Source: a virus
IMG/VR virus record: IMGVR_UViG_3300045988_079296
Span: 34,613 to 98,612 of that record
Direction: 5' to 3' (one strand)
Length of the DNA stretch: 64,000 nucleotides
Shown here: positions 1 through 64,000 of the stretch, in pieces
Numbering within the stretch: position 1 is the first letter of the stretch
Layout of the letters: each line of letters opens with the position of its first letter
Program-made: the position numbers and the translations under genes
The notes under the pieces: generated by a model
Databases searched by the model: none
The model's input: the letters and a program-made list of their open reading frames with translations, nothing else
What the model was told of the DNA's origin: nothing

Positions 1-364
1 TGTACCCTTTATTCTTTTTCAAGAACTTTCTTACCCATTCAACCAACGCATCTTCAATCTCGGTTAATGTCTCACGTCCGAAGTATTGATTCAGGTATTT
101 ATAAGCATTTTCCAAGGTGACTCCCTTCGGGTATGCCTTATTATACCCGTAATAACTTTCATCCTTGAAATCAAGCTCCAAATGATGATACGGGATATTT
201 AAAAACTCAAATAGCTTCGCATCCTCCGCTACTCTCTTCTCATCATTCTCAACGTTCAAAACTTGAACTTCATATTCGGGGAAGAATAGTACATGAGAAC
301 AGCAGAATAAAGCATCGTCCGAATGCGGAGCTACTATGAGATATTTTTGTTTTATTTTTCCCAT
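1..364 (-). CDS. PIG-L/LmbE-family deacetylase-like protein, 5' part only (continues past the window start)
   Basis: Not in the ORF track because no stop lies in the window. Own translation from ATG 364-362 reads MGKIKQKYLIVAPHSDDALFCCSHVLFFPEYEVQVLNVENDEKRVAEDAKLFEFLNIPYHHLELDFKDESYYGYNKAYPKG... and stays open to position 1. LIVAPHSDDA resembles the AHPDD(E) zinc-site motif of PIG-L/LmbE deacetylases. The start overlaps the radical SAM stop by 13 nt. Confidence 0.45.
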   Translation of the reverse strand, partial: MGKIKQKYLIVAPHSDDALFCCSHVLFFPEYEVQVLNVENDEKRVAEDAKLFEFLNIPYHHLELDFKDESYYGYNKAYPKGVTLENAYKYLNQYFGRETLTEIEDALVEWVRKFLKKNKGY

Positions 365-1308
365 TTCCTTCTTACGATAATAGGAGATAAAAAGCCATCT
401 TTGTGCACACTTTGTGCTAACTTCTTGACCTCTGGAGTTATCTCTGGCAAAGTCTCTTGACCCGAACTATCAGGCAAGAACCCTACACGCATACTAATAT
501 TCGTACAACCACTACAAGGTCGGAAGTTACGACTGTAATTGTAGAGCATAATTCTCGCAGCTCGAAAACGTTCATGATTCCAAAGCTCTACAATCCCCAT
601 GTCGTTGATATTAGCAATCGGATATTCCCCACGGAAGTCATCGCAACATAAAGAAACGTTGCCATCGTATCGGAAAGCTAATTCACGGAAAGGCATAGCA
701 CAACGCTTGTTGTTATACGACTTATCCAACGGAGCTGCTGCACCGCAATGATTGGCAAGTTTACGTGTTATCTTGTTGTCCTCCTTAATCGGTGGCAATA
801 ACAATATTCTCGGTTTCTTGTTGTTAGTGTACAACGGTATTCCCTTTTCATAGAATACAACGTTCCACGCCCCTTCGGGAAGTTTATTTACAAAATTCCA
901 ATCTCCCTCGTCCGTATAACAATCCACGATAAGATTGTTTATTCCAGCATCGAAAAGGCTCTCAACATATTCCTCTGTATTCTCGGCTCTATTTGCCGCA
1001 TAACCGTTCGTGTACATATGTAAAATAGCATTCGGCAATTCCTCTCGGAATATCTTTACTATTTCCATAATCTTCGGATTCAACGTTGGCTCTCCATGCT
1101 GAGCGAATACTATTTTGCTATTCCAACCTGCTTTAGCAATCTCGCTCGCTATTCTCTTTGCGGTTTTGATACTCATGTGATTCCAAGGTTTCGTTCCTTT
1201 TTCACGCATACCTCTCAACCCACAGAAAGAGCATCCCAAATTACATCCTTCGGTTGGTTCAATTAGCACCGTGAACGGTGCTTGTTGTACAATTTTCTTT
1301 TTAGCCAT
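352..1308 (-). CDS. Radical SAM enzyme with SPASM/twitch-like C-terminal domain
   Basis: 318 aa. EPTEGCNLGCSFCG gives the CxxxCxxC radical SAM cluster motif near the N-terminus. The C-terminal Cys-rich block (CAMPF...VSLCCDDF...RPCSGC) is typical of auxiliary-cluster SPASM/twitch domains. Confidence 0.85.
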   Translation of the reverse strand: MAKKKIVQQAPFTVLIEPTEGCNLGCSFCGLRGMREKGTKPWNHMSIKTAKRIASEIAKAGWNSKIVFAQHGEPTLNPKIMEIVKIFREELPNAILHMYTNGYAANRAENTEEYVESLFDAGINNLIVDCYTDEGDWNFVNKLPEGAWNVVFYEKGIPLYTNNKKPRILLLPPIKEDNKITRKLANHCGAAAPLDKSYNNKRCAMPFRELAFRYDGNVSLCCDDFRGEYPIANINDMGIVELWNHERFRAARIMLYNYSRNFRPCSGCTNISMRVGFLPDSSGQETLPEITPEVKKLAQSVHKDGFLSPIIVRRKWEK

Positions 1309-1309
1309 T

Positions 1310-2242
1310 TTACTTTGAAACTTTTATATTCAACTTTACTCCTTTTAACTTTGGATTTTTTGATACTTTCTTTATCGGAACTGTGAAAGCTCTCGTTTCA
1401 TCGCTCCAAGCAAAACCTTCCTTCTTATGGTTGATTGTGCAACGACAATATGGATGTATAGGAGATATGGTTGGAAGCCATTCTGCTACCTTCCTCCCGA
1501 TATTATTGCCGTTTGCTATAATGTCCTTTAGCTTGAATACAATCGGCTCGCTGTTTACGTCCTCTGGGTCGGTTAATAAAAGTTCTCTACAATGCTTACA
1601 AGCACCTGGGTAAACATCGAAGTACACCTCAGCATCCGCTCCGTAATTCTTCAAGATACTTTGCGCTCTTCCTGCGTTGAACGCTTCGTGAGTAAGATAG
1701 TAGGCTATTCTCAACCAATCTACTTCCCAATCCTTAGACGTATCAGCAAGGTCAGCCGCCAATCCTCTCGCTCCCATTCTTAGCTCGGTAGCCTTAATAG
1801 TCTTTTGACGTATCATTTGTTGAACGACAAGAGCTTGTTGTTGATTGTTCCGTAGAACGTTATTACTCAATCCCGTCCTCATTCGGTTGCCCAAACTCGT
1901 TATATCGGTGTAGGCTCTATTCTTTACCGTTTCCAAGGCAAACTCTTCCTCTTCGGTAAGAGGAATGAAGTTGCCCGATTTCAAGAACTTCTTGAATTGC
2001 GCATAAGACATATTTTGCGCTCTCTTATCTCCGATTGCTTCGGCAAGAATACCGAAAAGAAAAGCATGCTCAATTATTCCTTGAGCGTTCTTATACTTAT
2101 CCAAATCTACTCCTGAAGCAATCAATATATCCTTATCCGTCTGGGATAGATAGTCTAATCCCAACTGTCCTGCTATGAACAAAAGCTCGTACCGCTTGAG
2201 TATTGATAGCATGTCTTGTATTTGTCCTTGGCTATAAATCAT
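1310..2242 (-). CDS. Head morphogenesis / minor head protein (Mu F, SPP1 gp7-like)
   Basis: 310 aa. The C-terminal block YPGACKHCRELL...PIHPYCRCT resembles the conserved Cys/His region of Phage_Mu_F proteins. Lies in the same module as the portal. Confidence 0.7.
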   Translation of the reverse strand: MIYSQGQIQDMLSILKRYELLFIAGQLGLDYLSQTDKDILIASGVDLDKYKNAQGIIEHAFLFGILAEAIGDKRAQNMSYAQFKKFLKSGNFIPLTEEEEFALETVKNRAYTDITSLGNRMRTGLSNNVLRNNQQQALVVQQMIRQKTIKATELRMGARGLAADLADTSKDWEVDWLRIAYYLTHEAFNAGRAQSILKNYGADAEVYFDVYPGACKHCRELLLTDPEDVNSEPIVFKLKDIIANGNNIGRKVAEWLPTISPIHPYCRCTINHKKEGFAWSDETRAFTVPIKKVSKNPKLKGVKLNIKVSK

Positions 2243-2430
2243 TTCTTTACCTCCGTTTCTTTAACGGCAGAAGCAGTTGCTTTGGCCATGTACTTTAGAA
2301 CCTCTGCGACTGCTTCTGCGGTATTGTTATTCCAAACCTTTACAAATTCATTTTCGTAAGCGGTTACTGCGGGAAACGGAGAAGGAATGAAGTGGCCATT
2401 TTTTACAACTTCCTTCTTCGGCTTATCCAT
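2239..2430 (-). CDS. hypothetical protein (63 aa)
   Basis: Minus-strand ORF in the co-directional gene train. ATGA stop/start overlap with the Mu-F-like gene. No recognisable motif. Confidence 0.6.
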   Translation of the reverse strand: MDKPKKEVVKNGHFIPSPFPAVTAYENEFVKVWNNNTAEAVAEVLKYMAKATASAVKETEVKK

Positions 2431-2434
2431 ATTG

Positions 2435-3494: not shown

Positions 3495-3496
3495 GA

Positions 3497-4066: not shown

Positions 4067-4072
4067 AGTTGT

Positions 4073-4666: not shown

Positions 4667-4677
4667 ATCTTTATAGT

Positions 4678-6585: not shown

Positions 6586-6590
6586 ATCGT

Positions 6591-9334: not shown

Positions 9335-10438
9335 CTATAATGATTTTGTTTTCGGTACAAATTTACTTCGTTGCTTACCCTCTCCGATAATCATCTTCCA
9401 ATACTTCTGAAATTCGCAAAGCCACATTTCAATTTGGTGAAGAGTTATATTGGGCTCATCTGACGTGTAATATTCTCCGTCCTCCATATCCCAATACAGA
9501 TAGGGAAAGTTTTCTTTTTTCTCTTCGCTTATTCTTCCCAACCATTCTTCTGCCAAATCTCTTAACCAATATATGGCAGGTTTTTGTTCTCGGAGCGTAG
9601 AAAGGTTTGGATATATGAGACGAATGCCGATACTACACCCTGGCCCAACGTTCGTGAAGTCGTTTTGGTCAAACTTCATAAAACGTCTGCCCGTGTACTT
9701 CGGTATATATGTGAAGTCCTGATAGAACTCATGAGCAATAAAATCGGCTACCGCAGGGAACGTTTTCAAGTACTCAATAATCTCTTCTGGCTTCTTAGCG
9801 GTCATCACCTTAGCAATGAGCTTATCCATGTTCTTATGCAGATGCGGAATAACAACCCTTGTATAGCAATAGTCTCTCGGTTGACCAGGTGTTGCTTGAG
9901 AGTTAATCAAGTAAGCAGTTGTATAAGGGTTTTGCCCCGAACTACGAACGCCAGCAATGAAACGGCTGAACTCGTCCTCATCGTATTCATCCCAATCGGG
10001 TATGCCGTTCTTCCACTTTGTAGCCGCAATCAATTCGTCTTTCGATTGAGCTTGTTTTAATCCCGATTTCACTGGTGCTCCAAATAAGCTCGGTTGAAGT
10101 GTTTTTCCTTTCGGCTCAAACATAAACGTTTCGGGGCAATTAAAGAAGCGGAAAACCATCATCTTCCAAACCAAGTTCTTCAACGACAAACTTTCGTCAA
10201 GAAGAATGTTCTTGATTTGCCATTGACTATTTCGGTCAAGCTCCCGATACACGTTGGTGAACTTTGACTCTTGAAAAATCTTGTTCTTTGTCCAAGGTCG
10301 TTCTTTCCCGTCTATGAACCTCCGTTTCCATATAAGCTGGCGTTCATACATAGTCTCAAAGAACAAACGCAAATGAGGCTCGTACACCTCAAGATTTTCG
10401 TCAGGTAACTTATCGTACCATGCTGCATTTTCAAACAT
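9335..10438 (-). CDS. alpha-glutamyl/putrescinyl-thymine pyrophosphorylase (aGPT-Pplase)-like DNA base hypermodification protein
   Basis: 367 aa. The N-terminal block YERQLIWKRRFIDGKERPWTKNKIFQESKFTNVYRELDRNSQW matches my recollection of the aGPT-Pplase family signature (PWT...F.N.YRE.DR). Not verified by a profile search. Confidence 0.6.
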   Translation of the reverse strand: MFENAAWYDKLPDENLEVYEPHLRLFFETMYERQLIWKRRFIDGKERPWTKNKIFQESKFTNVYRELDRNSQWQIKNILLDESLSLKNLVWKMMVFRFFNCPETFMFEPKGKTLQPSLFGAPVKSGLKQAQSKDELIAATKWKNGIPDWDEYDEDEFSRFIAGVRSSGQNPYTTAYLINSQATPGQPRDYCYTRVVIPHLHKNMDKLIAKVMTAKKPEEIIEYLKTFPAVADFIAHEFYQDFTYIPKYTGRRFMKFDQNDFTNVGPGCSIGIRLIYPNLSTLREQKPAIYWLRDLAEEWLGRISEEKKENFPYLYWDMEDGEYYTSDEPNITLHQIEMWLCEFQKYWKMIIGEGKQRSKFVPKTKSL

Positions 10439-16248: not shown

Positions 16249-16441
16249 ATTCCTCAATTTTTCTTTGTTTATCTTCTTCGGTCATATTGCAAGTGCGTCC
16301 TATAATGTTACTTGATAATATCTTCACGCTTCCATCAGGCTGCTTTTGCATCATAGTTTCAACGGCAAAGTCGTTACCTTGACCGAAGTCAACCCCGATA
16401 AACAAACCTTTGCCGTTGGTGAATTGTTGGAACTGTCTCAT
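16202..16441 (-). CDS. hypothetical protein (79 aa)
   Basis: ATG shares one base with the dUTPase stop (TAATG overlap). Overlaps the next gene by about 47 nt. Confidence 0.55.
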   Translation of the reverse strand: MRQFQQFTNGKGLFIGVDFGQGNDFAVETMMQKQPDGSVKILSSNIIGRTCNMTEEDKQRKIEEYERLCENEAVEQKST

Positions 16442-16896
16442 TATTTCATTCCCGTGTGTCCATAACCTCCCGCACCTCTCTCGGAGTCACGCTGAAAGCC
16501 TTCTACTGGTTTCCATGTAGCTTGGAATAAACCGCCTGAGCCGTTGCACACCGCCTGAGCAATTCTCTCCCCTCTCTTAACAACAAACGTCTCGTTGCTG
16601 AGATTAATCAAAGGCACTCCAACTTCTCCTTGGTAGTCGGCATCTATTGTGCCAGGTGCGTTGATAACTGTTATGCCTTTCTTAACAGCCAAACCGCTTC
16701 TCGGTCTTATCTGCATTTCGGCATCCGTAGGTAGCTCAACATATACTCCCGTAGGAACAACGCAACGTTCCATGGGTTGAAGTACAATGTCATTAACGTT
16801 TGCAGCATACAAATCTGCTCCTGCCGAAAGTTCGGTTGCATAATAGGGAAGTTTACCAAAACCTTTGATAATAATTCTTACGTCTCTCTTTTCCAT
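16441..16896 (-). CDS. dut: dUTP diphosphatase (trimeric dUTPase)
   Basis: AGADLYA, RPRSGLAVKKGI, GTIDADYQGEV, GERIAQ and a C-terminal RGAGGYGHTG P-loop-like motif are the classical dUTPase motifs 1-5. Confidence 0.95.
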   Translation of the reverse strand: MEKRDVRIIIKGFGKLPYYATELSAGADLYAANVNDIVLQPMERCVVPTGVYVELPTDAEMQIRPRSGLAVKKGITVINAPGTIDADYQGEVGVPLINLSNETFVVKRGERIAQAVCNGSGGLFQATWKPVEGFQRDSERGAGGYGHTGMK

Positions 16897-45370: not shown

Positions 45371-46451
45371 ACTTAACTTGCTTTATCAAATCCAACCCAT
45401 ACTTGAACTTATCTCCCTTTATCTTGCTTTCGGAACAGAAGCGGATGAAGTCTTGCTTTAATGTTTTTGTATCGTAACTCAACACCTCTTCGTTTTCGCT
45501 TATCTCCATGGCTTCAATTTGTTCTTCGGCTTCAAATTTACAATCAATACCGTACTTGGTTTGTATTTCTACCATATTGATTTTATGAGCATCCGCTCTC
45601 TTACCCCGAAAAACGAACCTCACAAAGTCCTCCCGTTCTTCATCGCCATACTTCTCCAGTAAGTTCATCAACGTCTCTTTATCGTTTACGTCAATAGCCT
45701 CCTTGATATACTTCGGGAACTTAGACGGGATGAACTTCGTACTTCCATCGTCAAATATGACTGTGAAGCCTTTGTCTGTTATATTCTCGCCATAATTGTT
45801 CTGATAAGCCGAACCCGTATATATAACATTATCCGACAGCTTACTTGCGTTATGATAGTGACCAATCAGTACCTTAGTCCAATTCTCAAACATAGACGGC
45901 TTAATCAAAGACTTTACAGCCGTACCGTCATTGTTTAGAACTCCGTCAAACCCCGAATGAGTTATGAGTATTTTCGGATAACTCTCATCAATGTCTCCAT
46001 CTTTGTAGTTTTCCTCAATTTCCTCTTCTATCTTTTCAAATTCCTCCAACCACTTCTCGTCTTTGAAATAGGGAATGAACGCCAAAACCACCCCGCCAAT
46101 AATCCTGCGACTACCAGAGCGGTAAAGATGAACACACCGATCAGAATAAACATCCAAATAACTCTTCTCATCGTCTGAATCCGTTTTATCATGATTGCCT
46201 GGAATGAGGTGAATTTCCATTTCCGCTTCCTCAATCATTTGTAGTATTTCTTTCCAATCCGTTAAACAAGACAGAGGTTGCCCCGAACGGTTGGTGAATA
46301 TATCCCCTCCGCAAATTATACGGTCAGTTCCATAATCAATGCAAAGATTGATAAGCTGACTAAATATATATTTAACCAACTTACCATTATCTTTGTCCAA
46401 ATGTGGGTCATTGATAAGTATTCCAATTGCTTCTTTCTTACTTTTCTTCAT
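45357..46451 (-). CDS. Mre11/SbcD-like (T4 gp47-like) nuclease
   Basis: Calcineurin-like phosphoesterase motifs INDPHLD, CGGDIF, IPGNHDK, ITHSGFDG, IGHYHNA. Start choice is uncertain: ATG 46451 or 46484, tracked TTG 46502. Confidence 0.85.
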   Translation of the reverse strand: MKKSKKEAIGILINDPHLDKDNGKLVKYIFSQLINLCIDYGTDRIICGGDIFTNRSGQPLSCLTDWKEILQMIEEAEMEIHLIPGNHDKTDSDDEKSYLDVYSDRCVHLYRSGSRRIIGGVVLAFIPYFKDEKWLEEFEKIEEEIEENYKDGDIDESYPKILITHSGFDGVLNNDGTAVKSLIKPSMFENWTKVLIGHYHNASKLSDNVIYTGSAYQNNYGENITDKGFTVIFDDGSTKFIPSKFPKYIKEAIDVNDKETLMNLLEKYGDEEREDFVRFVFRGKRADAHKINMVEIQTKYGIDCKFEAEEQIEAMEISENEEVLSYDTKTLKQDFIRFCSESKIKGDKFKYGLDLIKQVKYVVS

Positions 46452-46467
46452 ACCCTTAATAACGCTG

Positions 46468-49576: not shown

Positions 49577-49885
49577 TTATTCTTTTTCTTGTTCTTCTTT
49601 TTCCTCTTCTTCAAGAATGTGTAACCCGATAACGGCATAACCGATAATGTCCTTTAGAGTGTCTTGGATGCTCTCAAAATTCGGCTCTTCTCCCTTTAAT
49701 CGGTTTTCCACCATGTTTCTTAACCTTGATGTTTTGTCCCAAATATGAACCATGTTGCCGTTCATACCCAAATCAAAACTCGCTCCTTTGTAGTCTTTGT
49801 TTTTCTTTAACAAGATTTCAGTCATGCCATCAAAGATGCCATTGATACTTTCTCTCGTCATTTCTTCACCTTTCTTCTTACTCAT
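49577..49885 (-). CDS. DUF1599-like all-alpha protein (nucleotide-modification-associated family)
   Basis: KKNKDYKGASFDLGMNGNMVHIWDKTSRLRNMV matches the K..DYG...G....i.DK..R pattern I recall for DUF1599. Confidence 0.45.
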   Translation of the reverse strand: MSKKKGEEMTRESINGIFDGMTEILLKKNKDYKGASFDLGMNGNMVHIWDKTSRLRNMVENRLKGEEPNFESIQDTLKDIIGYAVIGLHILEEEEKEEQEKE

Positions 49886-50519
49886 CGTTAAATAAGTTTT
49901 TTAAATTATACAATTCGGTTATGTTAATCTCCACATCGGGGAAATTTATTTTCAAACTGTTTATAACAGCATCAACCGCTTTCGGGAAATTTTGTTTTGC
50001 TCTCTCCCATTGTTCATCCAATCCTCTATTACCCAATGAACGTTCTCTTTTCATATAGAAGTAAAGAGCCATCCAATCGCATAGTTTAGCGAACTTCTTT
50101 TCAGGCTCTGGGCAAGCGCAAACCATAGATAACATCATATTTGATGCATCGGTATCTGTTCCGTGTTCGTCTGTTTCCTTGAACTCCCTTAACGCTATAT
50201 GCTTTGATAGATTGTCAAGAACTCTTCTGACTTCCTCTCCGTTGTAGTCGTTATACTTAGTTTCATGGGACATATCCCGAAGTATCAATGCTTCATCCCA
50301 ATCGTGGAAGATAGCTCTTGAAACTACATCCAACTTAAACAATAATACCTTCGGGTCAATACTATGACCAAATACATCCTCCAATAAAACTCTTGCGAAT
50401 ACCGCATCTTTATAAGAGTGTTGACTCACGCTTTCTTCCTTGAAAACGTCCATTTCCTGCCACTGCTTAATATTATCAAGTCTGTGCAGATACTTACTTT
50501 TGATAATCTTGTTTAACAT
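49878..50519 (-). CDS. HD-domain phosphohydrolase (YfbR-like 5'-deoxynucleotidase-like)
   Basis: SVSQHSYKDAVFARVLL (His) and AIFHDWDEALILRDMSHETK (HD...E...D) fit the HD superfamily metal site. Preceded by the conserved leader motif. Confidence 0.6.
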   Translation of the reverse strand: MLNKIIKSKYLHRLDNIKQWQEMDVFKEESVSQHSYKDAVFARVLLEDVFGHSIDPKVLLFKLDVVSRAIFHDWDEALILRDMSHETKYNDYNGEEVRRVLDNLSKHIALREFKETDEHGTDTDASNMMLSMVCACPEPEKKFAKLCDWMALYFYMKRERSLGNRGLDEQWERAKQNFPKAVDAVINSLKINFPDVEINITELYNLKNLFNDE

Positions 50520-50521
50520 TT

Positions 50522-50537
50522 CAATTTGATTTACGAT
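50522..50537 (-). promoter_or_regulatory. conserved leader motif, variant (copy 5)
   Basis: Minus strand ATCGTAAATCAAATTG, 2 nt before ATG 50519. The TAA inside the motif is the dnaE stop codon. Confidence 0.45.
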
Positions 50538-53500
50538 ATTATATAAATTTTTGTTCTTTCGTCTGAATAAAGAACCTTTTGATTTTTGAACTTATCCTTC
50601 TTGACCCGTCCGCAAATTGCCACTACTCGGTTTTTATACTCCGATATATTTTCAGGAAGTCTATCCACCGCATCTGGCCAAAGTGTAACAGGTATGATGG
50701 TATTATTACAGTCTATATTAACGCTGACCATCGTTCCGTTCTTAATTTGACGCTCTTGGTAGTAGATTAACTTGCCTGCTATTGTGGCTTCTCTGCCCTC
50801 CTTAGTGTTCGCAAATTCAAAGTCATTAACGTATAACTTTGCCACTCTCTTATTTGGAATAGCATCCCTAATCATTGTTTCATAATCTACCTCTCCAAAC
50901 CCAGTAAGACGTTTCTGTTCAAATACCCAAAATGAGTTTTTGTTAGCTTCTTCGGTCTGATACTCCTTAGCAATATCCGCTTTCTTATACTCGGCAAACC
51001 ATTGCAACAACTTTTTCCTATCTCTTGGGTTTTTCAAGTTTTCTACAATGTCGAAAGCTCCAGCAACAATCAGACGTTCTATGACTTTCTTGTTTACTTT
51101 GGACGGAACTCTTTCCACGAACTCTTCAAGAGAAAAGAACTTGCCCCCCTTCTCCCGTTCTTCGATAATATACGGCACAACTTTCTCTCCAACGTCCTTA
51201 ATCTTTGTTAAGCTAAAGAAGATGCGTTGTTCCTTCGGGTCACAAGTAAAGGTTTGAGCTGAGAAGTTCACATCAGGCGGTCTTATCTCAATTTCCGCTC
51301 CCGTCTTTTTAAGCTCTGCAAGTCGGTATGGCACTTCACCTTCTTTAGAGAATTGCAGAGCTGTTGTCCAAAATTCCAACGGGTAGTTTACTTTCATATA
51401 TTGACTCCAATACGACATTATGGAATATGCCGCAGCATGAGACTTATTAAAACCATAACCAGAGAAGGCAAGAAGTTTAGCCCAAACTTTCTCGGCATAC
51501 TCGTCTGGCTTCTCAATCTTGTTTTTCCTTAATAGCTCGCTGTAACCTTTCTTGAATTTCTCTCCGTAGGATGATAGTGTTTTAACATCCTTCTTTTTTA
51601 TGGTAGTTCGGAGAATATCTGATTCAACCTCCGTCAATCCTCCTACCACAACGCCCTTCATGATTTGCTCTTGATAGACGTATAATCCAAAAGTTTCTGC
51701 CGTTATCTCTTCCATACCGAAGTCGTATGTTGGTTTCTTCTTTCCGTTCTTAATATCGGCAAAATCAGAGTGAGCGTTGAGCTCCATTGGGCCAGGTCGG
51801 AATAGAGCGGTCATGGCTATGAGTTGAGCCAACGTATCGGGTTTCACTTGTCTTGAGTAGTTCATAAGTCCTTGCGTACCGAACTGAAAGACATCTTCAT
51901 TCCAACCTCTCTTAAAGTATTTGAATGTTTCCTCGTCATCAAGCGGAATAGCGTTCCAATCAATCTTCTTTCCGTAATTCTTTTGGATTAATACTTCCAT
52001 GTTCTTGAACTTATCTAATTGGTTTAATCCCAATATATCCTCTTTCAAGAAGCCAGACTTGTCTATGTATTTACCTTCCCACTCCGACACTAAGACACCG
52101 TCAATCATCTTAACGGGCATCCATTCCCATATATCAATCGGTCTATTCGTACCGTCCACAGTATGTTTCGGAACTATGATTGCGGCTGAAGGGTGAACGG
52201 ATGCCGCCTTGCATTGCAACATGCCATACTTCGTTAGATGTACAATATCGGGGTTTTCTTGAACGAACTTAAACAACGCTTTCGATTTACTGGCATACTC
52301 AAGCAAGTCGCCCCAAGTGTATTCAATTTGGTCGTCAATATCCTTCGTTAGTTTATTCATGGTATCAAATGGAATACCCTTGACTTTCCCGAAGTCCTTC
52401 AAACAAGTCTTCAATTTCATTCGGGTGTACGTTCCGATACTGCATGTATAATCATAACCATATTTTTCCTTGATATAATTCTTAACCGCATCACGGTGTT
52501 CGGTTGGAAAGTCAACGTCAATATCGGGCATACTATCCGCTGATTTGGCTCGCTCTCCCGATACACGTGTCTCATTCAAGAAACGTTCAAACATTAATCC
52601 GTACTTCAACGGGTCAACATCCGTAATATGTAAGCAATAAGCTACAAGACTACCGCAAACCGAACCACGCCCAGTACCAACCATTATACCTCGTTTCTTA
52701 CACCAATTGATTATATCCCAAAGTATCATAAAGTAGTCCACAAGGTCGTTGGGAACAATTACGTTACATTCGATTTCCAAACGTTTCATGTATATCGCCA
52801 ATTCTTTCTTGGGAAGATGCCCCAACCTTTCGTTTGCCCCCTTCTCTACCATATCAAAGAATAACCCAACGGCATCATCTACCTCAAACGCAGGTAGTTT
52901 CTTTTCTCCGCTCGGTATCTTGAAGTCAACCTTATCAACTAACAAGGTTGCATTCTCAATGCCTTCTACGATAGTTTGGAATAACGGCTCAACCTCTTCC
53001 AACCAATCGGAATATTCCTCAAAGGTTTCTCCACAAGTCTTGAAGTATTGGTTTATAGCTTCGGGTGCGGCTTTTCCTAACACTTTGTTGATAACGCCTT
53101 TCAACTCGTGCATTTCTCGGTCAAGATAATAGGAGTCATTTATCAATATCGGCTTCAATAGCTTCTTATAGTTACAAATATATGTATCTATGTTTTCCAA
53201 GTGCTTCTTGAAGAGATTATCAGAGACGAACTCAACGGTGTCCACCTGATAATAAACTCTTGTAAAATGCTTCTTATACTTTGCTATGAGCTTGATAGTT
53301 TCCTTCTTATCGTCTTTAATGTAGTTGAACTCTGACTCCTTCGGGATAACGCAAACCAAACCTTTCCCAAGTTCCAACAATTCGCTCTCTGGGATGAAAC
53401 CATTATACGTTACATTAACAGCCTTATTTATCAACAAAAGGTTTTTCCAACCTTCGTAATTCAGTATGTAAAACTTTAATTCAAACGTTTCTTGGTTTTG

Positions 53501-54070
53501 TTTATCTTTTGAATAGTCCTTCGCTACCGTTATTGTTTCACCGATAACGGACTTCACGCCATACTTATCGCAGAAGGTCTGAAAGGATAACGCTCCAGCC
53601 AACGTATTTCGGTCACATATCCCCAACGCCTTAACTCCAACAAACTTTGCTTTCTTTGCCCATGTATCGCAACCTCCCGAACCATTCAATATTTCATATT
53701 CGGTATGTACACCAAGATGTGCAAAGTCCATTATGTACTCTTCGCTAATTTTACCAAGATACTTGAAGTCCAAGAATTGTGGCTTGAAGATAATTTCGTT
53801 GTATCGGTTTTTATCCTTCTTTATTCCCGAATAATAGAACTTGCTTCCAAATTCAAAGAGGATGTATTTGACTTTCCCCTCGTCCAGCATATCAAATTCT
53901 TCATCTGAAAGGATAAACCCAAAGTCCTCGTCAATTATTTTACCATCAAAAGGATGAAGATACAAAAAGTCTCCAACCTCTTCGATAGAGATAATATCAG
54001 AGCCGTCCAACGTTGACTCTGATATTACCATGTGATTATCTTCTATCCACTTTTGTAGATTTTCCGTCAT
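50531..54070 (-). CDS. dnaE: DNA polymerase III alpha subunit (DnaE-type, PHP domain)
   Basis: 1179 aa. PHP motifs HLGVHTEYEILNG and GICDRNTLAGA; palm GTGRGSVCGSLVAYCLHITDVDPLKYGLMFERFLN, MPDIDVDF, HPSAAII, FNKSHAAAYS. Confidence 0.95.
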   Translation of the reverse strand: MTENLQKWIEDNHMVISESTLDGSDIISIEEVGDFLYLHPFDGKIIDEDFGFILSDEEFDMLDEGKVKYILFEFGSKFYYSGIKKDKNRYNEIIFKPQFLDFKYLGKISEEYIMDFAHLGVHTEYEILNGSGGCDTWAKKAKFVGVKALGICDRNTLAGALSFQTFCDKYGVKSVIGETITVAKDYSKDKQNQETFELKFYILNYEGWKNLLLINKAVNVTYNGFIPESELLELGKGLVCVIPKESEFNYIKDDKKETIKLIAKYKKHFTRVYYQVDTVEFVSDNLFKKHLENIDTYICNYKKLLKPILINDSYYLDREMHELKGVINKVLGKAAPEAINQYFKTCGETFEEYSDWLEEVEPLFQTIVEGIENATLLVDKVDFKIPSGEKKLPAFEVDDAVGLFFDMVEKGANERLGHLPKKELAIYMKRLEIECNVIVPNDLVDYFMILWDIINWCKKRGIMVGTGRGSVCGSLVAYCLHITDVDPLKYGLMFERFLNETRVSGERAKSADSMPDIDVDFPTEHRDAVKNYIKEKYGYDYTCSIGTYTRMKLKTCLKDFGKVKGIPFDTMNKLTKDIDDQIEYTWGDLLEYASKSKALFKFVQENPDIVHLTKYGMLQCKAASVHPSAAIIVPKHTVDGTNRPIDIWEWMPVKMIDGVLVSEWEGKYIDKSGFLKEDILGLNQLDKFKNMEVLIQKNYGKKIDWNAIPLDDEETFKYFKRGWNEDVFQFGTQGLMNYSRQVKPDTLAQLIAMTALFRPGPMELNAHSDFADIKNGKKKPTYDFGMEEITAETFGLYVYQEQIMKGVVVGGLTEVESDILRTTIKKKDVKTLSSYGEKFKKGYSELLRKNKIEKPDEYAEKVWAKLLAFSGYGFNKSHAAAYSIMSYWSQYMKVNYPLEFWTTALQFSKEGEVPYRLAELKKTGAEIEIRPPDVNFSAQTFTCDPKEQRIFFSLTKIKDVGEKVVPYIIEEREKGGKFFSLEEFVERVPSKVNKKVIERLIVAGAFDIVENLKNPRDRKKLLQWFAEYKKADIAKEYQTEEANKNSFWVFEQKRLTGFGEVDYETMIRDAIPNKRVAKLYVNDFEFANTKEGREATIAGKLIYYQERQIKNGTMVSVNIDCNNTIIPVTLWPDAVDRLPENISEYKNRVVAICGRVKKDKFKNQKVLYSDERTKIYIIS

Positions 54071-55266
54071 AGCTTACCAAGATATTTATGCTTCATTGGT
54101 TTACTTAACCTTGCTGCAAAGAAGTTCTTTGCTAATATCGACATATCCCAACCGTCCGCACCTTCGGCTTCCAACAACTCAATCTCGGCAATAGCGGTCT
54201 TTCTTATCGCATCCTTTTCAAGAGCCGTTTTTGCAAGCGTCATTTTCTGCTTGTAGAGCACGTATATCTTCAAGAGCTGATAAACGTTATAAAAGTAAGT
54301 TGAAAACTCTTGTAGCTGCTTAATTTCATCTTGTACGTCAGTCTCTCCGTTCTTTACCCTCATAAGGTTTTCGATAACGATATTCAAGTGAGCATCTACC
54401 TCTCTGAGACGGTTGACCGCTACTTCGTGAGAGAACGCAAAGTCCATCGGTCTTGCTTCGGCTTCGGTTGCCTCATAGAGCGAATGACCCATGCCTTGTT
54501 GTTGGTATATCTCGTCCATCTTTTGAGCCGTACCATTCCAATCATAAATATGTAAGCTCTGGGAGTTGTGAGTTTGCGTTCCTAACTCAATACCTAAACA
54601 ACGGCACATTATCTCGGTAAGGAAGGAGAATTGGAATATGTTCGTAGGCAATCCCCAATGAAGGTCGTTACTTCGGTTTGCGATAGTAGTTATCAATTTG
54701 CCCTTCCGAACTTTCAACTTTATGAGGTCATTGCACGGTATATCCTTACTTTTTGCCCCAAGGTCAAAACTTGGATTCCAAATCGCCATTACAACTTGTC
54801 TGGTATTCATATTCTCGGATAACAAACGAACCGCATCTGCTACTTGGTCATATCCTTGAGCTGCCGTTACTCCGTTCTCATATTTATCCTCCGTCCGAAT
54901 ACCCCAGTGGCGAAGTCTGAACCCGTAAGGAGCGTGGAATGTTTTGCCATCATCAGAAAAGTCTTTCATTCGTGCGTTGAAGATTTCCAAAAATTCCAAA
55001 TCTTTTCTTCCTACGGCTATCCACATAGCTTCGGCAAGAAGGAAGAAGATGTTTATATCTCTTCCATAACCGCCAACACACCTCGCAATGGGATTGGTGA
55101 TAATAGTTTTGATGTCTAATAATTCTTTAGCATCCCCAGCACGGCTCTCTTCGCTTTCTTGGTTGTTCAAGATGTAGTTATTAATCACTGGATAGAGTGC
55201 TCCAAATTCCTCCACTTTTGCTACTCCGTAGTCAGGCAGGAAACAATTTGTCTTTGGTAGTCCCAT
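54067..55266 (-). CDS. divergent thymidylate-synthase-fold enzyme (dUMP hydroxymethylase candidate) with about 130-aa C-terminal extension
   Basis: ThyA-fold blocks YGFRLRHWG, YDQVADAVRLL, RQVVMAIWNPSFDL...DIPCNDL (catalytic Cys), NRSNDLHWGLPTNIFQFSFL, SLHIY. Asn in PTN suggests uracil rather than cytosine specificity. ATGA overlap with dnaE. Confidence 0.75.
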   Translation of the reverse strand: MGLPKTNCFLPDYGVAKVEEFGALYPVINNYILNNQESEESRAGDAKELLDIKTIITNPIARCVGGYGRDINIFFLLAEAMWIAVGRKDLEFLEIFNARMKDFSDDGKTFHAPYGFRLRHWGIRTEDKYENGVTAAQGYDQVADAVRLLSENMNTRQVVMAIWNPSFDLGAKSKDIPCNDLIKLKVRKGKLITTIANRSNDLHWGLPTNIFQFSFLTEIMCRCLGIELGTQTHNSQSLHIYDWNGTAQKMDEIYQQQGMGHSLYEATEAEARPMDFAFSHEVAVNRLREVDAHLNIVIENLMRVKNGETDVQDEIKQLQEFSTYFYNVYQLLKIYVLYKQKMTLAKTALEKDAIRKTAIAEIELLEAEGADGWDMSILAKNFFAARLSKPMKHKYLGKL

Positions 55267-57429: not shown

Positions 57430-57433
57430 ATAG

Positions 57434-57468: not shown

Positions 57469-57473
57469 ATTTT

Positions 57474-57537: not shown

Positions 57538-57563
57538 TCTAAATTGGGTTTTCGTGGCGTTCC

Positions 57564-58975: not shown

Positions 58976-60323
58976 CCCAATCGGTGTTTAACGTTCTTAC
59001 ACGGTCATAGAACCTCGCATAAGCAAAGTTGTTACAAATATGTATTGGGTCGCCATTCTTATAGTCTCGGAGCTTATCTGTATGAATGCGCATGATTTCC
59101 TCTCGCATTTCATCACGGGTTTGGTTAATCGTAATGAATATATCGAAAGGTCTGATTTTACCTTTATCCTCCGACAGTTGAGCACGGGTGATAACGAATT
59201 GGGGGTCATTCTTTTGTTCCTCCGCTATATTACTGGATTGGGTTGCCGTATGAACTACCGCATTAAACTCCATCGCCAAGGTCTTCATTCCCTTCGCAAG
59301 TTTAGCTTGTCGGAAACGTTCATCTTTTGGCATATAAAGAATACCATCGCCAACCTCTAACAACTCCAAGTAGTCTATGATAATAACGTCTATCTTACCA
59401 TAGATTTTCTCCATTTCTTTCAGCTCCCTACGAACGTCAACAAGGCTCTTACCTCCCCATTTCTCTTCGGAGCTTACAATAACATCGGACTTGCGCAACT
59501 TCTTAATGATACGTTGCGTTACTTTCATCTTTTTATCCGATATATTGCCTTGCTTAACGTCTTGATAAAGCGTTCCTGTCCAAGCTGCATCGTAACGATT
59601 CAAACATTGCTCTTTCGTTCCTTCCAACTGGAAGTGGGCTACCCTGAACCCCTGCCTTGCGGCTGATATCCCAAGAGAAGTCAAACATTGACTCTTACCA
59701 GATCCTGAATCTCCTAACCAAAGAACGCATTCACCCGTCTCTGGGCCACCGAACTCTCCGCCCAAACGATAATCAATTTCATCAATTCCCGTAGGTATCT
59801 TGAAACGAAAGTTGTAATCTTCGCTCTTTCTCTTCGCTTGTCGCTCGGAGAAGTCCGCAAAGACGGTTTCAAACTTCGGCTTCATTATGGAGAATTTGGA
59901 AAAGTCCTCGGCATACTTAACGAATGTATCATATGCTTTGTCCTTTTCTCCACGGTTGTATATATCCGCTATCTTATCATTAACTTCAATGAACTTCATA
60001 CGCTTGATGAAGTCCTCAAAGCTCTTCATCAAATCATCCTCGAAGTTATCTTCATCATCAAACTCAACATCGACTATCTCTCCCAACAAATCAAGAACCT
60101 TCTCTGAATCAGCAAACTGTTGTTGAGCTATACCGATTGTTGGCGTTCTTCCCGTCCTATCATAATGCTTAACCGCCCATTGCCATAACTGTTTTTCAGC
60201 TTCTGTTTGTAAGAAGGAGAATTTCAGATACTCACGTATTGTATCAAAAACTCCCCTTCTTTGGAACGCAGCCGCAAATAGCTCGTTGATATAATTACTC
60301 GTCAAAGAATTATTTCTTGCCAT
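58947..60323 (-). CDS. dnaB: DnaB-family replicative helicase
   Basis: Walker A WLGDSGSGKSQ, Walker B VIIIDYLE, RecA-like core with HTATQSS. N-terminal helical domain. Confidence 0.85.
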   Translation of the reverse strand: MARNNSLTSNYINELFAAAFQRRGVFDTIREYLKFSFLQTEAEKQLWQWAVKHYDRTGRTPTIGIAQQQFADSEKVLDLLGEIVDVEFDDEDNFEDDLMKSFEDFIKRMKFIEVNDKIADIYNRGEKDKAYDTFVKYAEDFSKFSIMKPKFETVFADFSERQAKRKSEDYNFRFKIPTGIDEIDYRLGGEFGGPETGECVLWLGDSGSGKSQCLTSLGISAARQGFRVAHFQLEGTKEQCLNRYDAAWTGTLYQDVKQGNISDKKMKVTQRIIKKLRKSDVIVSSEEKWGGKSLVDVRRELKEMEKIYGKIDVIIIDYLELLEVGDGILYMPKDERFRQAKLAKGMKTLAMEFNAVVHTATQSSNIAEEQKNDPQFVITRAQLSEDKGKIRPFDIFITINQTRDEMREEIMRIHTDKLRDYKNGDPIHICNNFAYARFYDRVRTLNTDWDEKEENEED

Positions 60324-62691: not shown

Positions 62692-62970
62692 CGTCTTTTG
62701 AATTTTACTTGGGGTGAGAAAGCAAAGAAAGTTTGACCCCCGTTCCCCCTTTGTTGAACAATATGTTTACTTGGGTATGAGTACTCAGTTGTCAGAAATT
62801 TACCCCCGTTTGATAAAGGACAGAGCTGAGATTTATTCGTTGCGTTACTGGAAAGGTCGTTCACGCTTATCGTATAACTTTGAAAATCGTAAGAGCCTAA
62901 AATTTGATTGCTCCCGTGCTTTTCTTTAACGTTGAACCTCTCGTATCACTTTCCTACCTTCGGGTGCTTA

Positions 62971-63006
62971 GCAAAAGAGAAAGGGAGCAGAAATGTTCCC
63001 TTTCTC
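62971..63006 (-). terminator. Rho-independent terminator after 63027-63998
   Basis: Arms gagaaaggga (62977-62986) and tccctttctc (62997-63006), 10 bp. Followed by TTTTGC on the minus strand. Confidence 0.75.
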
Positions 63007-63026
63007 GCTTTCGTATAACTCCGCTT

Positions 63027-63998
63027 TTACTTCGTCTTCAAAACTATGTAATTTGCTTCGTCCGTATTATAGTTCACAAAGAACTGACCATTTTGGATTG
63101 TACTGGTAAGGAGTTGTGCCCCGTCCGTTTGTTCTACGATTTCCAGCCCAAGTCCTTCCATAAAGTCGGGAACGTTGATTCCAATCCTGCTTTGCACCGA
63201 TTGGCAATGGGCATAGATTACATATTGCTCACCATCCTTATACCAATACACCTGTCCTACGTTATCGGAAGGGTCAAAGTAACTAACATAGTAGTTAATT
63301 TCTTTGAAGTAAGTATTCGGGAAGTTGTAACCATCATCCGCAAACGGAGCAGTATTAACAGCCGCAATATAGAACTTGTTCGTATTACTTGGACTGAAAC
63401 TTCCTAATCTTTGATGACCATCCGTGCTGGTAGCTATCGGAATATTTTGCCTTCTCTTTTCTTCTATGGTATCTCCACTTACAAGACTCAAGCCAGCCGC
63501 CATGCCGATAAGATAATCATCCGCATTTGGGTCTTGTAAGAACCCTATCTGACGGTCAATCAGTTTATCAACATCTTTTAAGTAAGTATCATTTCTCCAA
63601 TAACCATAACTTGTTGAAGAAGTTGAAGGAGAATTAAAAGGCTTGTCAATTTCAACTCCATCCCTTGCCGCAGCCTTCGGTATCATGAACATAGCCTTGT
63701 AACTACCTTTATCAAAGAAGAATTGTTGTTGACAAGCTCCATAACTTTGACATTCAATCTTTCTTCTGACGTCCACCGTAGTATTTACACAAACGGTTGA
63801 GCCCTTGAAATTATATGACCAAGTAAATCTCGCCAATTCCAAAGCTCCTTCTAAGTTCGGAGTACCAACTACACCTGGGGTTGGGAACCAATTGTTTTGA
63901 GCAACCGTAGATGGGTCATAACCAATTTGGCTCTCCGATACTTGGAAGTCATCACACCAATAGTCTCCTTCAGCCGCAATCATATTGCCGTCAATCAT
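63027..63998 (-). CDS. beta-rich virion-type protein; may extend beyond the window end
   Basis: 323 aa from ATG 63998, and the reading frame could continue upstream out of the window. Followed by a strong terminator, so it is probably the last gene of a late operon. Confidence 0.6.
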   Translation of the reverse strand: MIDGNMIAAEGDYWCDDFQVSESQIGYDPSTVAQNNWFPTPGVVGTPNLEGALELARFTWSYNFKGSTVCVNTTVDVRRKIECQSYGACQQQFFFDKGSYKAMFMIPKAAARDGVEIDKPFNSPSTSSTSYGYWRNDTYLKDVDKLIDRQIGFLQDPNADDYLIGMAAGLSLVSGDTIEEKRRQNIPIATSTDGHQRLGSFSPSNTNKFYIAAVNTAPFADDGYNFPNTYFKEINYYVSYFDPSDNVGQVYWYKDGEQYVIYAHCQSVQSRIGINVPDFMEGLGLEIVEQTDGAQLLTSTIQNGQFFVNYNTDEANYIVLKTK

Positions 63999-64000
63999 AT

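What the first reader, a model, noticed from the sequence alone, without database searches (positions are those of the whole stretch)
1..64000. Near-complete avoidance of GATC and total absence of CCGG
I read the whole window for these tetranucleotides. GATC occurs only twice (46139-46142 and 59701-59704). CCGG does not occur at all: none of the several hundred ccg trinucleotides is followed by g. GCGC has the same base composition as CCGG and occurs a couple of dozen times. TCGA, ACGT, GTAC, AGCT and CATG are common. From mononucleotide composition I would roughly expect about 200 GATC and several tens of CCGG; this is an estimate, not a computation. Depletion this strong is the classic footprint of selection by GATC-specific (MboI/DpnII/Sau3AI-type) and CCGG-specific (HpaII/MspI-type) restriction systems in the host range. 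It is notable in a phage that may also modify its thymines, because CCGG contains no T.
Basis: seen in the sequence. Interest (0 to 1): 0.65.

Follow-up and report, generated by a model that had tools for sequence, protein, structure and literature searches.

The report
Phage genome purged of restriction sites
This is part of a roughly 100-kb uncultivated gut phage whose DNA has been almost completely cleared of GATC, CCGG, CTAG, CGCG and about twenty other short sequences that bacterial restriction enzymes cut, a well-known phage defence seen here in an unusually complete form.

Summary
GATC occurs twice (46139, 59701) and CCGG never in 64 kb. With protein sequences and codon usage held fixed, about 170 and 99 are expected.

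CTAG (0 vs 72) and CGCG (1 vs 84) are also erased. GGCC, TCGA and GCGC are depleted. 33 of 64 hexamer palindromes are absent. CGNCG, GGNNCC and GTMKAC are almost gone, as are a few asymmetric words. ACGT, AGCT, CATG and AACGTT are normal, so this is site-specific, not general palindrome avoidance.

The sites are removed by context-dependent synonymous codon choice. They are kept out in wild strains: 1233 SNPs created 2 forbidden tetramers where 49 are expected.

The avoided set changes between close relatives. One sub-lineage keeps GATC, CCGG, CGCG and GCGC and carries a C5 DNA methyltransferase.

The best explanation is classical selection by host Type II restriction systems, probably in gut Bacteroidales. 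The host is not identified.

The window also carries thymine-hypermodification genes, but T-containing sites are purged too, so "CCGG has no T" does not explain the pattern.

This is a new member of a known kind, of moderate interest.

The parts
1..64000 (.). Window-wide elimination or depletion of specific short palindromes, plus a few asymmetric words. Observed vs expected: GATC 2/170, CCGG 0/99, CTAG 0/72, CGCG 1/84, GGCC 13/78, TCGA 68/211, GCGC 41/89, CGNCG 6/120, GGNNCC 3/77, GTMKAC 0/41, CTRYAG 2/40, RGCGCY 0/25, AAGCTT 0/35, GAATTC 1/34, CTTAAG 0/28, TTCGAA 0/28, ATCGAT 0/18, GTATAC 0/17, GTTAAC 1/19, GAGGAG 1/46, GAGATG 0/32.
   Evidence: Exact counts and Markov expectations. Codon-shuffle null.
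46139..46142 (.). One of the two residual GATC sites. It lies in the ORF 45357-46502 (minus strand) as the codons GAT CGG (Asp-Arg) and could be removed by a synonymous change.
59701..59704 (.). The second residual GATC site, in the DnaB-like helicase gene (GGA TCT). It is polymorphic in the wild: strains L012 and L013 have GCTC here.
38324..38327 (.). The only CGCG in the window (codons CGC GAG in ORF 37737-38723).
37974..37979 (.). The only GAATTC in the window (expected 34).
24828..24833 (.). The only GTTAAC in the window (expected 19). It is destroyed by an A>G change in strains L001, L004 and L005.
54067..55266 (-). Thymidylate-synthase-family enzyme, a candidate dUMP hydroxymethylase. 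Context for possible thymine modification.
   Evidence: Pfam PF00303, E = 5.5e-24. PHROG thymidylate synthase, E = 6e-70.
9335..10438 (-). 5-hmdU DNA kinase homologue, the signature enzyme of post-replicative thymidine hypermodification. It is conserved in every related locus that covers this position.
   Evidence: Pfam PF18723 HMUDK_hel, E = 3e-49. tblastn across the clade, 42-94% identity.
49878..50519 (-). YfbR-like HD-domain 5'-deoxynucleotidase, possibly a dTMP or dNMP scavenger. The next gene, 49577-49885, has a DUF1599 'nucleotide modification associated' domain.
   Evidence: Pfam PF12917, E = 1e-12, and PF07659, E = 4e-5.
16441..16896 (-). dUTPase.
   Evidence: Pfam PF00692, E = 1.5e-24.
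352..1308 (-). Radical SAM / SPASM enzyme of unknown role. It may belong to the base-modification pathway.
   Evidence: Pfam PF04055 and PF13186.
16914..18584 (-). Large terminase. Used as the marker to collect strains and relatives.
   Evidence: PHROG 38..
50531..54070 (-). DnaE-type DNA polymerase III alpha. Its nearest cultured relatives are phages of Bacteroidota hosts.
   Evidence: PHROG 405, E = 2e-207. tblastn.

Best explanation
The window is about two thirds of a roughly 99-kb virulent-type tailed phage found in human-gut metagenomes. Its host is probably a member of Bacteroidales.

[quoted passage not shown] Any mutation that creates such a site exposes incoming unmethylated phage DNA to cleavage, so it is removed.

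Because 94% of the DNA is coding, sites are kept out by choosing synonymous codons according to the neighbouring codon. Where the phage lineage carries its own methyltransferase, or meets other hosts, the same sites are tolerated.

Shown: the depletion, its site specificity, the codon mechanism, the population-level purging and the variation between lineages.
Inferred: that restriction enzymes are the selective agent, and which enzymes they are.
For: 1. Size and specificity. GATC 2 vs 170, CCGG 0 vs 99, CTAG 0 vs 72, CGCG 1 vs 84 under a null that keeps proteins and codon usage. The seven most depleted tetramers (each pooled with its reverse complement) are all palindromes. ACGT, AGCT, CATG, GCNGC, GTNAC and most Type IIS sites are normal, and AACGTT is enriched.

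2. About 25 separate motifs are significantly purged, including classic six-cutter sites: AAGCTT, GAATTC, CTTAAG, TTCGAA, ATCGAT, GTATAC, GTTAAC, CTGCAG.

3. Codon mechanism. Asp = GAT in 1/112 cases before a C-initial codon vs 61% elsewhere. Ile = ATC in 0/310 after a G-ending codon vs 28%. Pro = CCG in 0/192 before G vs 38%. Codons ending in CC occur 0/1155 times before Gly. Control contexts for ACGT and CATG are unaffected.

4. Ongoing purging. The same phage was assembled independently from many metagenomes (its terminase is indexed in 29 blocks of the collection). Those strains, 92-99.9% identical, keep the depletion. Of 1233 distinct SNPs, 49 would create GATC, CCGG, CTAG or CGCG if placed at random. 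Only 2 such sites exist in the strains. Several would-be creating SNPs come with an adjacent second change. Control words give 159 observed vs 152 expected. The GATC at 59701 is itself polymorphic.

5. Lineage-specific spectra in 80 relatives. L051, L053 and L055 keep GATC (60/78), CCGG (50/33) and CGCG (34/32) but lack CTAG. L039 also lacks ACGT and AGCT. L090 lacks CATG. L027 keeps GATC and CTAG.

6. The three loci that keep GATC, CCGG, CGCG and GCGC are the only ones carrying a C5 DNA methyltransferase (PF00145, E = 8e-89). It is intact in L053 and L055. No methyltransferase was found in the window.

7. Host context. The nearest cultured relatives infect Bacteroides, Chryseobacterium and Cellulophaga. 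A 97-kb relative is binned in a Bacteroidales MAG. Bacteroides phage crAss001 also lacks GATC (0/97) and CTAG (2/141). GATC and CTGCAG methylation motifs occur in all five Bacteroides fragilis-group species, whose genomes carry 2-38 methyltransferase genes each (PMC10333322).

8. Elimination of orthodox Type II sites in non-temperate dsDNA phages is an established phenomenon (PMC6286503).
Against: - The host is not identified, and no restriction enzyme with a matching specificity was shown to exist in it.
- The phage carries a thymine-hypermodification gene set. In hydroxymethylcytosine coliphages, base modification goes with a lack of site avoidance (2.4% vs 55.8% of host sites; PMC6286503). 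Strong avoidance here is therefore not what that precedent predicts.
- A single 373-aa C5 methyltransferase is unlikely to protect four different sites. The methyltransferase correlation may partly reflect a different host.
- A few avoided words have no enzyme I can name: GAGATG, ACAGG, MGGCC, CGNCG.
- About 16 kb of the genome was not examined.
Confidence: 0.85

Rival explanations
1. Modification-dependent nucleases (DpnI-like Type IIM or Type IV) drive part of the avoidance, rather than classical restriction-modification. Progeny methylated by one host's orphan methyltransferase (Dam-type GATC, or C5 methylation of CCGG or CGCG) would be cut in the next host. Losing the site is then the only safe state.
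For: GATC methylation is found in all five Bacteroides fragilis-group species, and most Type II methyltransferases there are orphans (PMC10333322). GATC, as a Type IIM site, is under-represented in all 46 phages whose hosts encode such nucleases (PMC6286503). Complete erasure rather than mere reduction would suit a situation where neither the methylated nor the unmethylated state is safe.
Against: It cannot be separated from classical restriction by sequence alone. It would not explain some twenty six-cutter sites. The methyltransferase-carrying relatives keep the sites, which argues that methylation protects rather than sensitises.
Confidence: 0.1
2. The depletion is an intrinsic bias, not defence evasion. 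Candidates are mutation or repair bias (for example very-short-patch-type repair removing CTAG), DNA-structural avoidance of palindromes, or a by-product of codon and amino-acid usage.
For: CTAG is rare in many bacterial genomes. The phage encodes an SbcC-like protein next to a metallophosphatase-family ORF, an arrangement like the SbcCD palindrome nuclease. A6/T6 runs are also depleted, 33 vs 146, which shows that some non-restriction constraints exist.
Against: The codon-shuffle null removes codon and amino-acid effects, and the depletion remains. Many palindromes are normal or enriched: ACGT, AGCT, CATG, AACGTT and pure A/T hexamers. Relatives with 88-95% identical terminase differ from 0 to about 60 GATC per 21 kb, and in which words are missing. 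That is incompatible with a shared intrinsic bias.
Confidence: 0.03
3. The phage uses its own site-specific nucleases against host DNA and must therefore lack those sites itself.
For: Some phages degrade host DNA. Several ORFs in the window have no annotation.
Against: No restriction-endonuclease-like domain was detected in the window. About 25 different specificities would need about as many nucleases.
Confidence: 0.02
4. Assembly, library or sequencing artefact.
For: None found.
Against: The same pattern appears in independent assemblies from ENA, Logan and IMG/VR samples, and in regions outside the window.
Confidence: 0.005

Closest known systems
Restriction-site avoidance in virulent dsDNA phages: T7 and other coliphages, Staphylococcus phage K (no GATC), and the survey by Rusinov et al. 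2018 (PMC6286503)
   Same: Near-total loss of orthodox Type II palindromic sites in a phage that shows no temperate features in the window. My own controls show GATC 6/125 in T7 and 0/116 in phage K.
   Different: The breadth is greater. Four tetramers are erased here against one each in T7 and phage K. 33 of 64 hexamer palindromes are absent against 19 of 64 in the 40-kb T7 genome and 22 of 64 in 50 kb of phage K. A few asymmetric words are also purged in both orientations, which the 2018 survey found to be rare.
Bacteroides phage crAss001 (MH675552)
   Same: A gut Bacteroides phage of about 100 kb that also lacks GATC (0/97) and CTAG (2/141) and is depleted in TCGA. This is consistent with shared host-group pressure.
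   Different: It is unrelated in sequence. It additionally lacks ACGT, which is normal here. CpG-containing sites are too rare in it to test. No thymine-modification genes are known for it. It shows no sparing of TG-containing hexamers.
Phages with 5-hmdU-derived thymidine hypermodification: M6, ViI, phiW-14 (PMC5889632, PMC8989533, PMC6449724)
   Same: The window encodes a 5-hmdU DNA kinase homologue, a thymidylate-synthase-family enzyme, a dUTPase and an HD-domain nucleotidase. In those phages the modification blocks 48-71% of Type II enzymes.
   Different: Whether this phage's DNA is modified is unknown. No pyrophosphorylase or transferase step was detected in the window. Here chemical protection, if present, coexists with massive site avoidance.
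Bacillus phage SPO1 (5-hydroxymethyluracil DNA) and its scarcity of GGCC sites. From memory (Reeve et al. 1980, Mol Gen Genet), not checked here.
   Different: Not tested with these tools. In the present phage T-containing sites are purged as strongly as T-free ones.

Membership tests
Restriction-site avoidance driven by Type II R-M systems | Short palindromic words far below a composition-, codon- and protein-matched expectation | tested here: met
   GATC 2/170, CCGG 0/99, CTAG 0/72, CGCG 1/84. No shuffle out of 300 comes near these values.
Restriction-site avoidance driven by Type II R-M systems | Site-specific rather than general: only some palindromes are affected and most non-palindromic words are unaffected | tested here: met
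   ACGT, AGCT, CATG, GTNAC, GCNGC and pure A/T hexamers are about 0.8-1.1 of expectation, and AACGTT is 1.5. The seven most depleted tetramers, pooled with their reverse complements, are all palindromes.
Restriction-site avoidance driven by Type II R-M systems | Sites removed without changing proteins (synonymous, context-dependent codon choice) | tested here: met
   Fisher p from 1e-10 to 1e-41 for GAT|C, G|ATC, CCG|G, C|CGG, CTA|G, CGC|G and C|GCG. Controls are not affected.
Restriction-site avoidance driven by Type II R-M systems | Continuing purifying selection against new sites | tested here: met
   2 real new sites against 49 expected from 1233 SNPs. Control words give 159 vs 152.
Restriction-site avoidance driven by Type II R-M systems | The host encodes nucleases with the avoided specificities | not testable with these tools
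   The host is not identified and REBASE is not available. Indirect support only: GATC and CTGCAG methylation motifs occur in all five Bacteroides fragilis-group species (PMC10333322), and a relative is binned in a Bacteroidales MAG.
Restriction-site avoidance driven by Type II R-M systems | Avoidance is relaxed where the phage has another protection, such as its own methyltransferase | tested here: inconclusive
   L051, L053 and L055 keep GATC, CCGG, CGCG and GCGC, and they alone carry a C5 methyltransferase. One methyltransferase is unlikely to cover four motifs, and only 21 kb per relative was seen.
5-hmdU-derived thymidine hypermodification system | 5-hmdU DNA kinase | tested here: met
   PF18723, E = 3e-49, at 9335-10438. 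Conserved across the clade.
5-hmdU-derived thymidine hypermodification system | dUMP hydroxymethylase supplying 5-hmdUTP | tested here: inconclusive
   A thymidylate-synthase-family protein is present. Whether it is a hydroxymethylase or an ordinary thymidylate synthase was not resolved.
5-hmdU-derived thymidine hypermodification system | Downstream transferase (aGPT-pyrophosphorylase type) and tailoring enzymes | tested here: not met
   No such Pfam family was hit in the window. Only a radical SAM/SPASM enzyme is a candidate tailoring step. About 16 kb of the genome is unseen.
5-hmdU-derived thymidine hypermodification system | Modified thymidine actually present in virion DNA | not testable with these tools
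   Needs LC-MS or long-read kinetics on phage DNA.

The most novel reading that the evidence does not exclude
The avoided set is the negative image of what a thymine hypermodification can protect. The 5-hmdU DNA kinase is conserved in every clade locus that covers its position. Hypermodified-T phages are reported to resist enzymes whose sites contain TG or TC.

In this window, hexamer palindromes containing TG/CA are spared (1 of 13 eliminated, pooled obs/exp 0.67). Mixed hexamers without TG are purged (15 of 21 eliminated, obs/exp 0.23).

The contrast recurs in distant clade members but not in crAss001 or T7. If real, the sequence specificity of a DNA hypermodification, and a two-layer anti-restriction strategy, could be read from sequence alone.
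Probability: 0.12. Interest if true: 0.65.

Novelty: new member of a known kind. Interest (0 to 1): 0.36.

Why it matters
Restriction-site avoidance is textbook, so the finding does not change what is known. It is nonetheless a clean and extreme natural example in an abundant, uncultivated gut phage clade.
- About 25 motifs are purged.
- Purging can be seen acting on present-day strain polymorphism.
- Close relatives have switched which motifs they avoid, one of them together with gain of a methyltransferase.

This makes the clade a good data set for two uses. One is measuring how fast phage genomes track host restriction repertoires. The other is inferring the restriction repertoire, and hence the host range, of uncultivated phages from their missing words. 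The coexistence with a thymine-hypermodification gene set also bears on whether chemical protection and site avoidance are alternatives or complements.

Tried and rejected
- A megablast of 12 kb against the 50,697 phage records gave no hit. Only distant protein relatives exist among cultured phages.
- Literature searches for restriction-site avoidance in Bacteroides phages and for gut phages with a 5-hmdU DNA kinase found no report on this clade.
- Pfam and PHROG scans of essentially all 92 ORFs found no DNA methyltransferase, restriction nuclease or known anti-restriction protein in the window.
- The 'T-free site' idea is rejected as a general rule. GATC, CTAG and many T-containing hexamers are purged as completely as CCGG and CGCG.
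- All 41 residual GCGC sites read TGCGC, which looked like evidence for protection by a flanking modified T. It follows trivially from avoidance of RGCGCY plus CGCG, so I dropped it.
- Residual GGCC sites are not explained by unavoidable Trp-Pro codons. Only 3 of 13 are.
- Internal Shine-Dalgarno avoidance as the cause of GAGGAG loss is rejected. GGAGG itself is not depleted, and the reverse complement is also absent.
- My single-SNP count of 'site-creating' changes (10) overstated the true number. Inspection showed adjacent compensating changes, and only 2 real sites exist.
- TG-sparing fails for CTGCAG and CTGTAG (CTRYAG 2 vs 40) and for lineage L090 (CATG 0/37). I keep it only as a low-probability reading.

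Full report
**1. Observation**

The window is 40.2% G+C. It contains GATC exactly twice (46139, 59701) and CCGG never, although CCG occurs 648 times and CGG 691 times.

Expected counts:
- GATC: 219, 227 and 178 under mononucleotide, first-order and second-order Markov models.
- CCGG: 98, 110 and 171 under the same models. The z-scores are about -16 and -17.5.

94% of the window is coding and all 92 retained ORFs lie on the minus strand. I therefore built a stricter null: synonymous codons were permuted among all positions of the same amino acid, which keeps every protein and the global codon usage. This gives 170 +/- 10 GATC and 99 +/- 8 CCGG. The minima over 300 shuffles were 138 and 82.

**2.

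Observed vs expected from the codon shuffles:

| Motif | Observed | Expected |
|---|---|---|
| CTAG | 0 | 72 |
| CGCG (at 38324) | 1 | 84 |
| GGCC | 13 | 78 |
| TCGA | 68 | 211 |
| GCGC | 41 | 89 |
| CGNCG | 6 | 120 |
| GGNNCC | 3 | 77 |
| GTMKAC | 0 | 41 |
| CTRYAG | 2 | 40 |
| RGCGCY | 0 | 25 |
| GGWCC | 2 | 26 |
| AAGCTT | 0 | 35 |
| GAATTC | 1 | 34 |
| CTTAAG | 0 | 28 |
| TTCGAA | 0 | 28 |
| ATCGAT | 0 | 18 |
| GTATAC | 0 | 17 |
| GTTAAC | 1 | 19 |

- The seven most depleted tetramers, each pooled with its reverse complement, are all palindromes.
- 33 of 64 hexamer palindromes are absent, 459 occurrences in total against 949 expected.
- A few asymmetric words are missing in both orientations: GAGGAG/CTCCTC 1 vs 46, GAGATG/CATCTC 0 vs 32, ACAGG/CCTGT 8 vs 54.
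- ACGT, AGCT, CATG, GTNAC, ACNGT, GCNGC, pure A/T hexamers and most Type IIS sites sit near expectation. AACGTT is enriched, 51 vs 35.
- One-mutation neighbours of the forbidden words are enriched: CCGA/TCGG 573 vs 335, and GATA.

The depletion is therefore motif-specific, not a general dislike of palindromes.

**3. What the sequence is**

PHROG and Pfam scans identify a tailed phage:
- a DnaE-type polymerase, a DnaB-like helicase, primase, RecA-like and SbcC-like proteins;
- two UvrD-like helicases, the large terminase and the portal;
- two sigma-factor-like proteins and an HU protein.

There is no nucleotide-level match among 50,697 phage records. The nearest cultured relatives, at 31-38% amino-acid identity, infect Bacteroides, Chryseobacterium, Cellulophaga and Tenacibaculum.

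The identical terminase is indexed in 29 blocks of the public metagenome collection, on contigs up to 99.6 kb. One ENA gut contig of 98.6 kb is 100% identical to the window over 21.7 kb. A relative with 87% identical terminase sits on a 97-kb contig binned into a Bacteroidales MAG. A gut Bacteroidales host is likely but not shown.

**4. How the sites are kept out**

| Codon and context | In context | Elsewhere |
|---|---|---|
| Asp = GAT before a codon starting with C | 1 of 112 | 61% |
| Ile = ATC after a codon ending in G | 0 of 310 | 28% |
| Pro = CCG before a codon starting with G | 0 of 192 | 38% |
| Arg = CGG after a codon ending in C | 0 of 233 | 10% |
| Leu = CTA before a codon starting with G | 0 of 462 | 10% |
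| any codon ending in CC before Gly | 0 of 1155 | 662 of 18816 |

Control contexts that would form ACGT or CATG show no such effect. The residual GATC, CGCG, GAATTC and GTTAAC sites all lie in ORFs and could be removed synonymously.

**5. Selection is still acting**

- Twelve strain-level loci, mostly 92-99.9% identical to the window with two identical, keep the depletion. This includes about 18 kb outside the window.
- The GATC at 59701 is polymorphic: two strains have GCTC.
- There are 1233 distinct SNPs against the window. If they fell at random, with the same base change and codon position, 49 would create GATC, CCGG, CTAG or CGCG.
- Only two such sites really exist in the aligned parts of the strains.
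- Several SNPs that would create a site are accompanied by a neighbouring change that avoids it. One example is GGTC to ATATC rather than GATC.
- For control tetramers, 159 creations were observed against 152 expected.

**6. The avoided set differs between relatives**

I retrieved 80 IMG/VR loci with 53-95% terminase identity, on contigs up to about 107 kb, many of them 97-101 kb.

Observed/expected, first-order Markov:

| Locus (terminase identity) | Kept | Missing or depleted |
|---|---|---|
| L051, L053, L055 (88-92%) | GATC 60/78, CCGG 50/33, CGCG 34/32 | CTAG 0/52, GGCC 3/26 |
| L014 (95%) | CCGG 42/27 | GATC 0/44 |
| L039 | – | also ACGT 1/45, AGCT 5/73 |
| L033, L034 | GATC, CTAG | ACGT, TGCA |
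| L027 | GATC, CTAG | – |
| L090 | – | CATG 0/48 |

A sub-clade with 51-54% G+C always lacks CTAG but ranges from 8 to 74 GATC per roughly 80 expected.

Such rapid, motif-by-motif switching is what changing host restriction repertoires predict. A shared mutational bias does not predict it.

L051, L053 and L055 are the only loci carrying a C5 cytosine DNA methyltransferase (PF00145, E = 8e-89). It is intact in L053 and L055. In L051 it is frameshifted by a third copy of an 8-bp repeat. No methyltransferase was detected in the window.

**7. Context from controls and literature**

- With the same null, Bacteroides phage crAss001 lacks GATC (0/97), CTAG (2/141) and ACGT (0/26). T7 has GATC 6/125 and phage K has 0/116.
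- Rusinov et al. 2018 found that elimination of orthodox Type II sites is common in non-temperate dsDNA phages. Complete or near-complete elimination occurs in about one tenth of genomes (PMC6286503).
- Tisza et al. 2023 report 2-38 methyltransferase genes per Bacteroides fragilis-group genome. GATC and CTGCAG were the only motifs seen in all five species (PMC10333322). Both are erased here.

**8. Thymine modification**

The window carries these genes:
- a 5-hmdU DNA kinase homologue (PF18723, E = 3e-49);
- a thymidylate-synthase-family enzyme and a dUTPase;
- a YfbR-like HD nucleotidase next to a DUF1599 protein;
- a radical SAM/SPASM enzyme.

The kinase is conserved in every clade locus that covers that position.

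It does not explain the pattern. T-containing sites are purged as completely as T-free ones. In hydroxymethylcytosine coliphages, modification goes with almost no site avoidance, so the coexistence here is mildly unusual.

One post hoc regularity remains. Flodman et al. 2019 reported that sites resistant in hypermodified-T phages contain TG or TC (PMC6449724).
- In the window, hexamer palindromes containing TG/CA are spared: 1 of 13 eliminated, against 15 of 21 mixed hexamers lacking TG. Fisher p = 4e-4.
- The contrast recurs in distant clade members.
- It does not appear in crAss001 or T7.
- It fails for CTGCAG and CTGTAG, and for lineage L090.

I treat it as a low-probability lead.

**9. Verdict**

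The best explanation is classical restriction-site avoidance in an uncultivated gut phage clade (confidence about 0.85). The selective agents are inferred, not identified. It is a new member of a known kind. Its value lies in the completeness of the purge, the visible ongoing selection, and the natural experiment offered by close relatives with different avoided sets.

Noticed in passing
window 54067-55266, 9335-10438, 49577-50519, 16441-16896, 352-1308 (all minus strand): A gene set typical of 5-hmdU-derived thymidine hypermodification: a thymidylate-synthase-family enzyme, a 5-hmdU DNA kinase, an HD nucleotidase plus a DUF1599 protein, a dUTPase and a radical SAM/SPASM enzyme. No pyrophosphorylase or transferase step was found in the window.
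   Followed up: partly
window-wide: Hexamer palindromes containing TG/CA are spared (1 of 13 eliminated) while mixed hexamers lacking TG are purged (15 of 21). The contrast is also seen in distant clade members but not in crAss001 or T7. Exceptions are CTGCAG, CTGTAG and lineage L090.
   Followed up: partly
window-wide: Asymmetric words are purged in both orientations: GAGGAG/CTCCTC 1 vs 46, GAGATG/CATCTC 0 vs 32, ACAGG/CCTGT 8 vs 54. GGAGG itself is not depleted. This may reflect Type IIS, IIG or III enzymes.
   Followed up: partly
window-wide: Residual GGCC (13 sites) occurs only as TGGCCA, TGGCCC/GGGCCA or GGGCCT. AGGCC (1 vs 47) and CGGCC (0 vs 37) are erased. I cannot match this MGGCC-like pattern to a known enzyme.
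   Followed up: no
window-wide: Runs of six A or six T are 4-fold depleted (33 vs 146). This is probably slippage avoidance and unrelated to restriction.
   Followed up: no
L051 2930-3010; L053 and L055 at the same place: The C5 DNA methyltransferase of the relatives that keep these sites contains a tandem 8-bp repeat, CGCCAAGG. There are two copies in L053 and L055 (intact ORF) and three in L051 (frameshift). This could be an on/off switch or an assembly difference.
   Followed up: partly
L001 16095-16862; L004 16098-16802; L005 13019-13723; L006 7567-7977 and 12404-13108: Strain-variable extra ORFs of 136-255 aa with no Pfam hit are inserted next to the flap endonuclease or the terminase gene in otherwise near-identical strains. 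They are absent from the window and may be mobile or homing elements.
   Followed up: no
L011 4979-9370 (just beyond window position 64000): A 1463-aa tail-fibre-like protein with a weak Mtd_N hit (major tropism determinant), which hints at a target of a diversity-generating retroelement.
   Followed up: no
L034 871-2802, 10464-11330, 12802-15478; L036 20613-21488: Some relatives carry GroES/GroEL-like and anaerobic-ribonucleotide-reductase-like ORFs (identified by eye from the translations). They also carry a TET-associated glycosyltransferase homologue (PF20691, E = 2e-10), which suggests different DNA-modification chemistry within the clade.
   Followed up: partly
window 13728-15209 and 40139-41629 (minus strand): Two paralogous UvrD-like helicases, both hitting PHROG 1967, in one phage genome.
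   Followed up: no
window 47676-49037 and 55399-56715 (minus strand): Two proteins with long acidic and lysine-rich low-complexity tails share a near-identical internal motif (…MDRSELK.[FY]IKE..LE[IV]SVKKS.SDDD[IL]RE.IREAM…).
   Followed up: no
L069 and L075 (IMGVR_UViG_3300029572_000001, 199 kb): One IMG/VR contig holds two diverged copies of the terminase locus about 100 kb apart. It is probably a chimeric assembly or concatemer of two related genomes.
   Followed up: no
L095 (DZBD01000067.1): A 13-kb contig with a 77% identical terminase is binned in a Sulfuricurvum MAG from a non-gut sample (isolate label 'SulCav'). The clade may therefore not be restricted to gut Bacteroidales, or the binning is wrong.
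   Followed up: no
L007 (Bacteroides phage DAC16, 120001-170000): This distant cultured relative has only 23.8% G+C. It shows GATC depletion (10 vs 74) but keeps CTAG (50 vs 82), a different avoidance profile from the window.
   Followed up: partly
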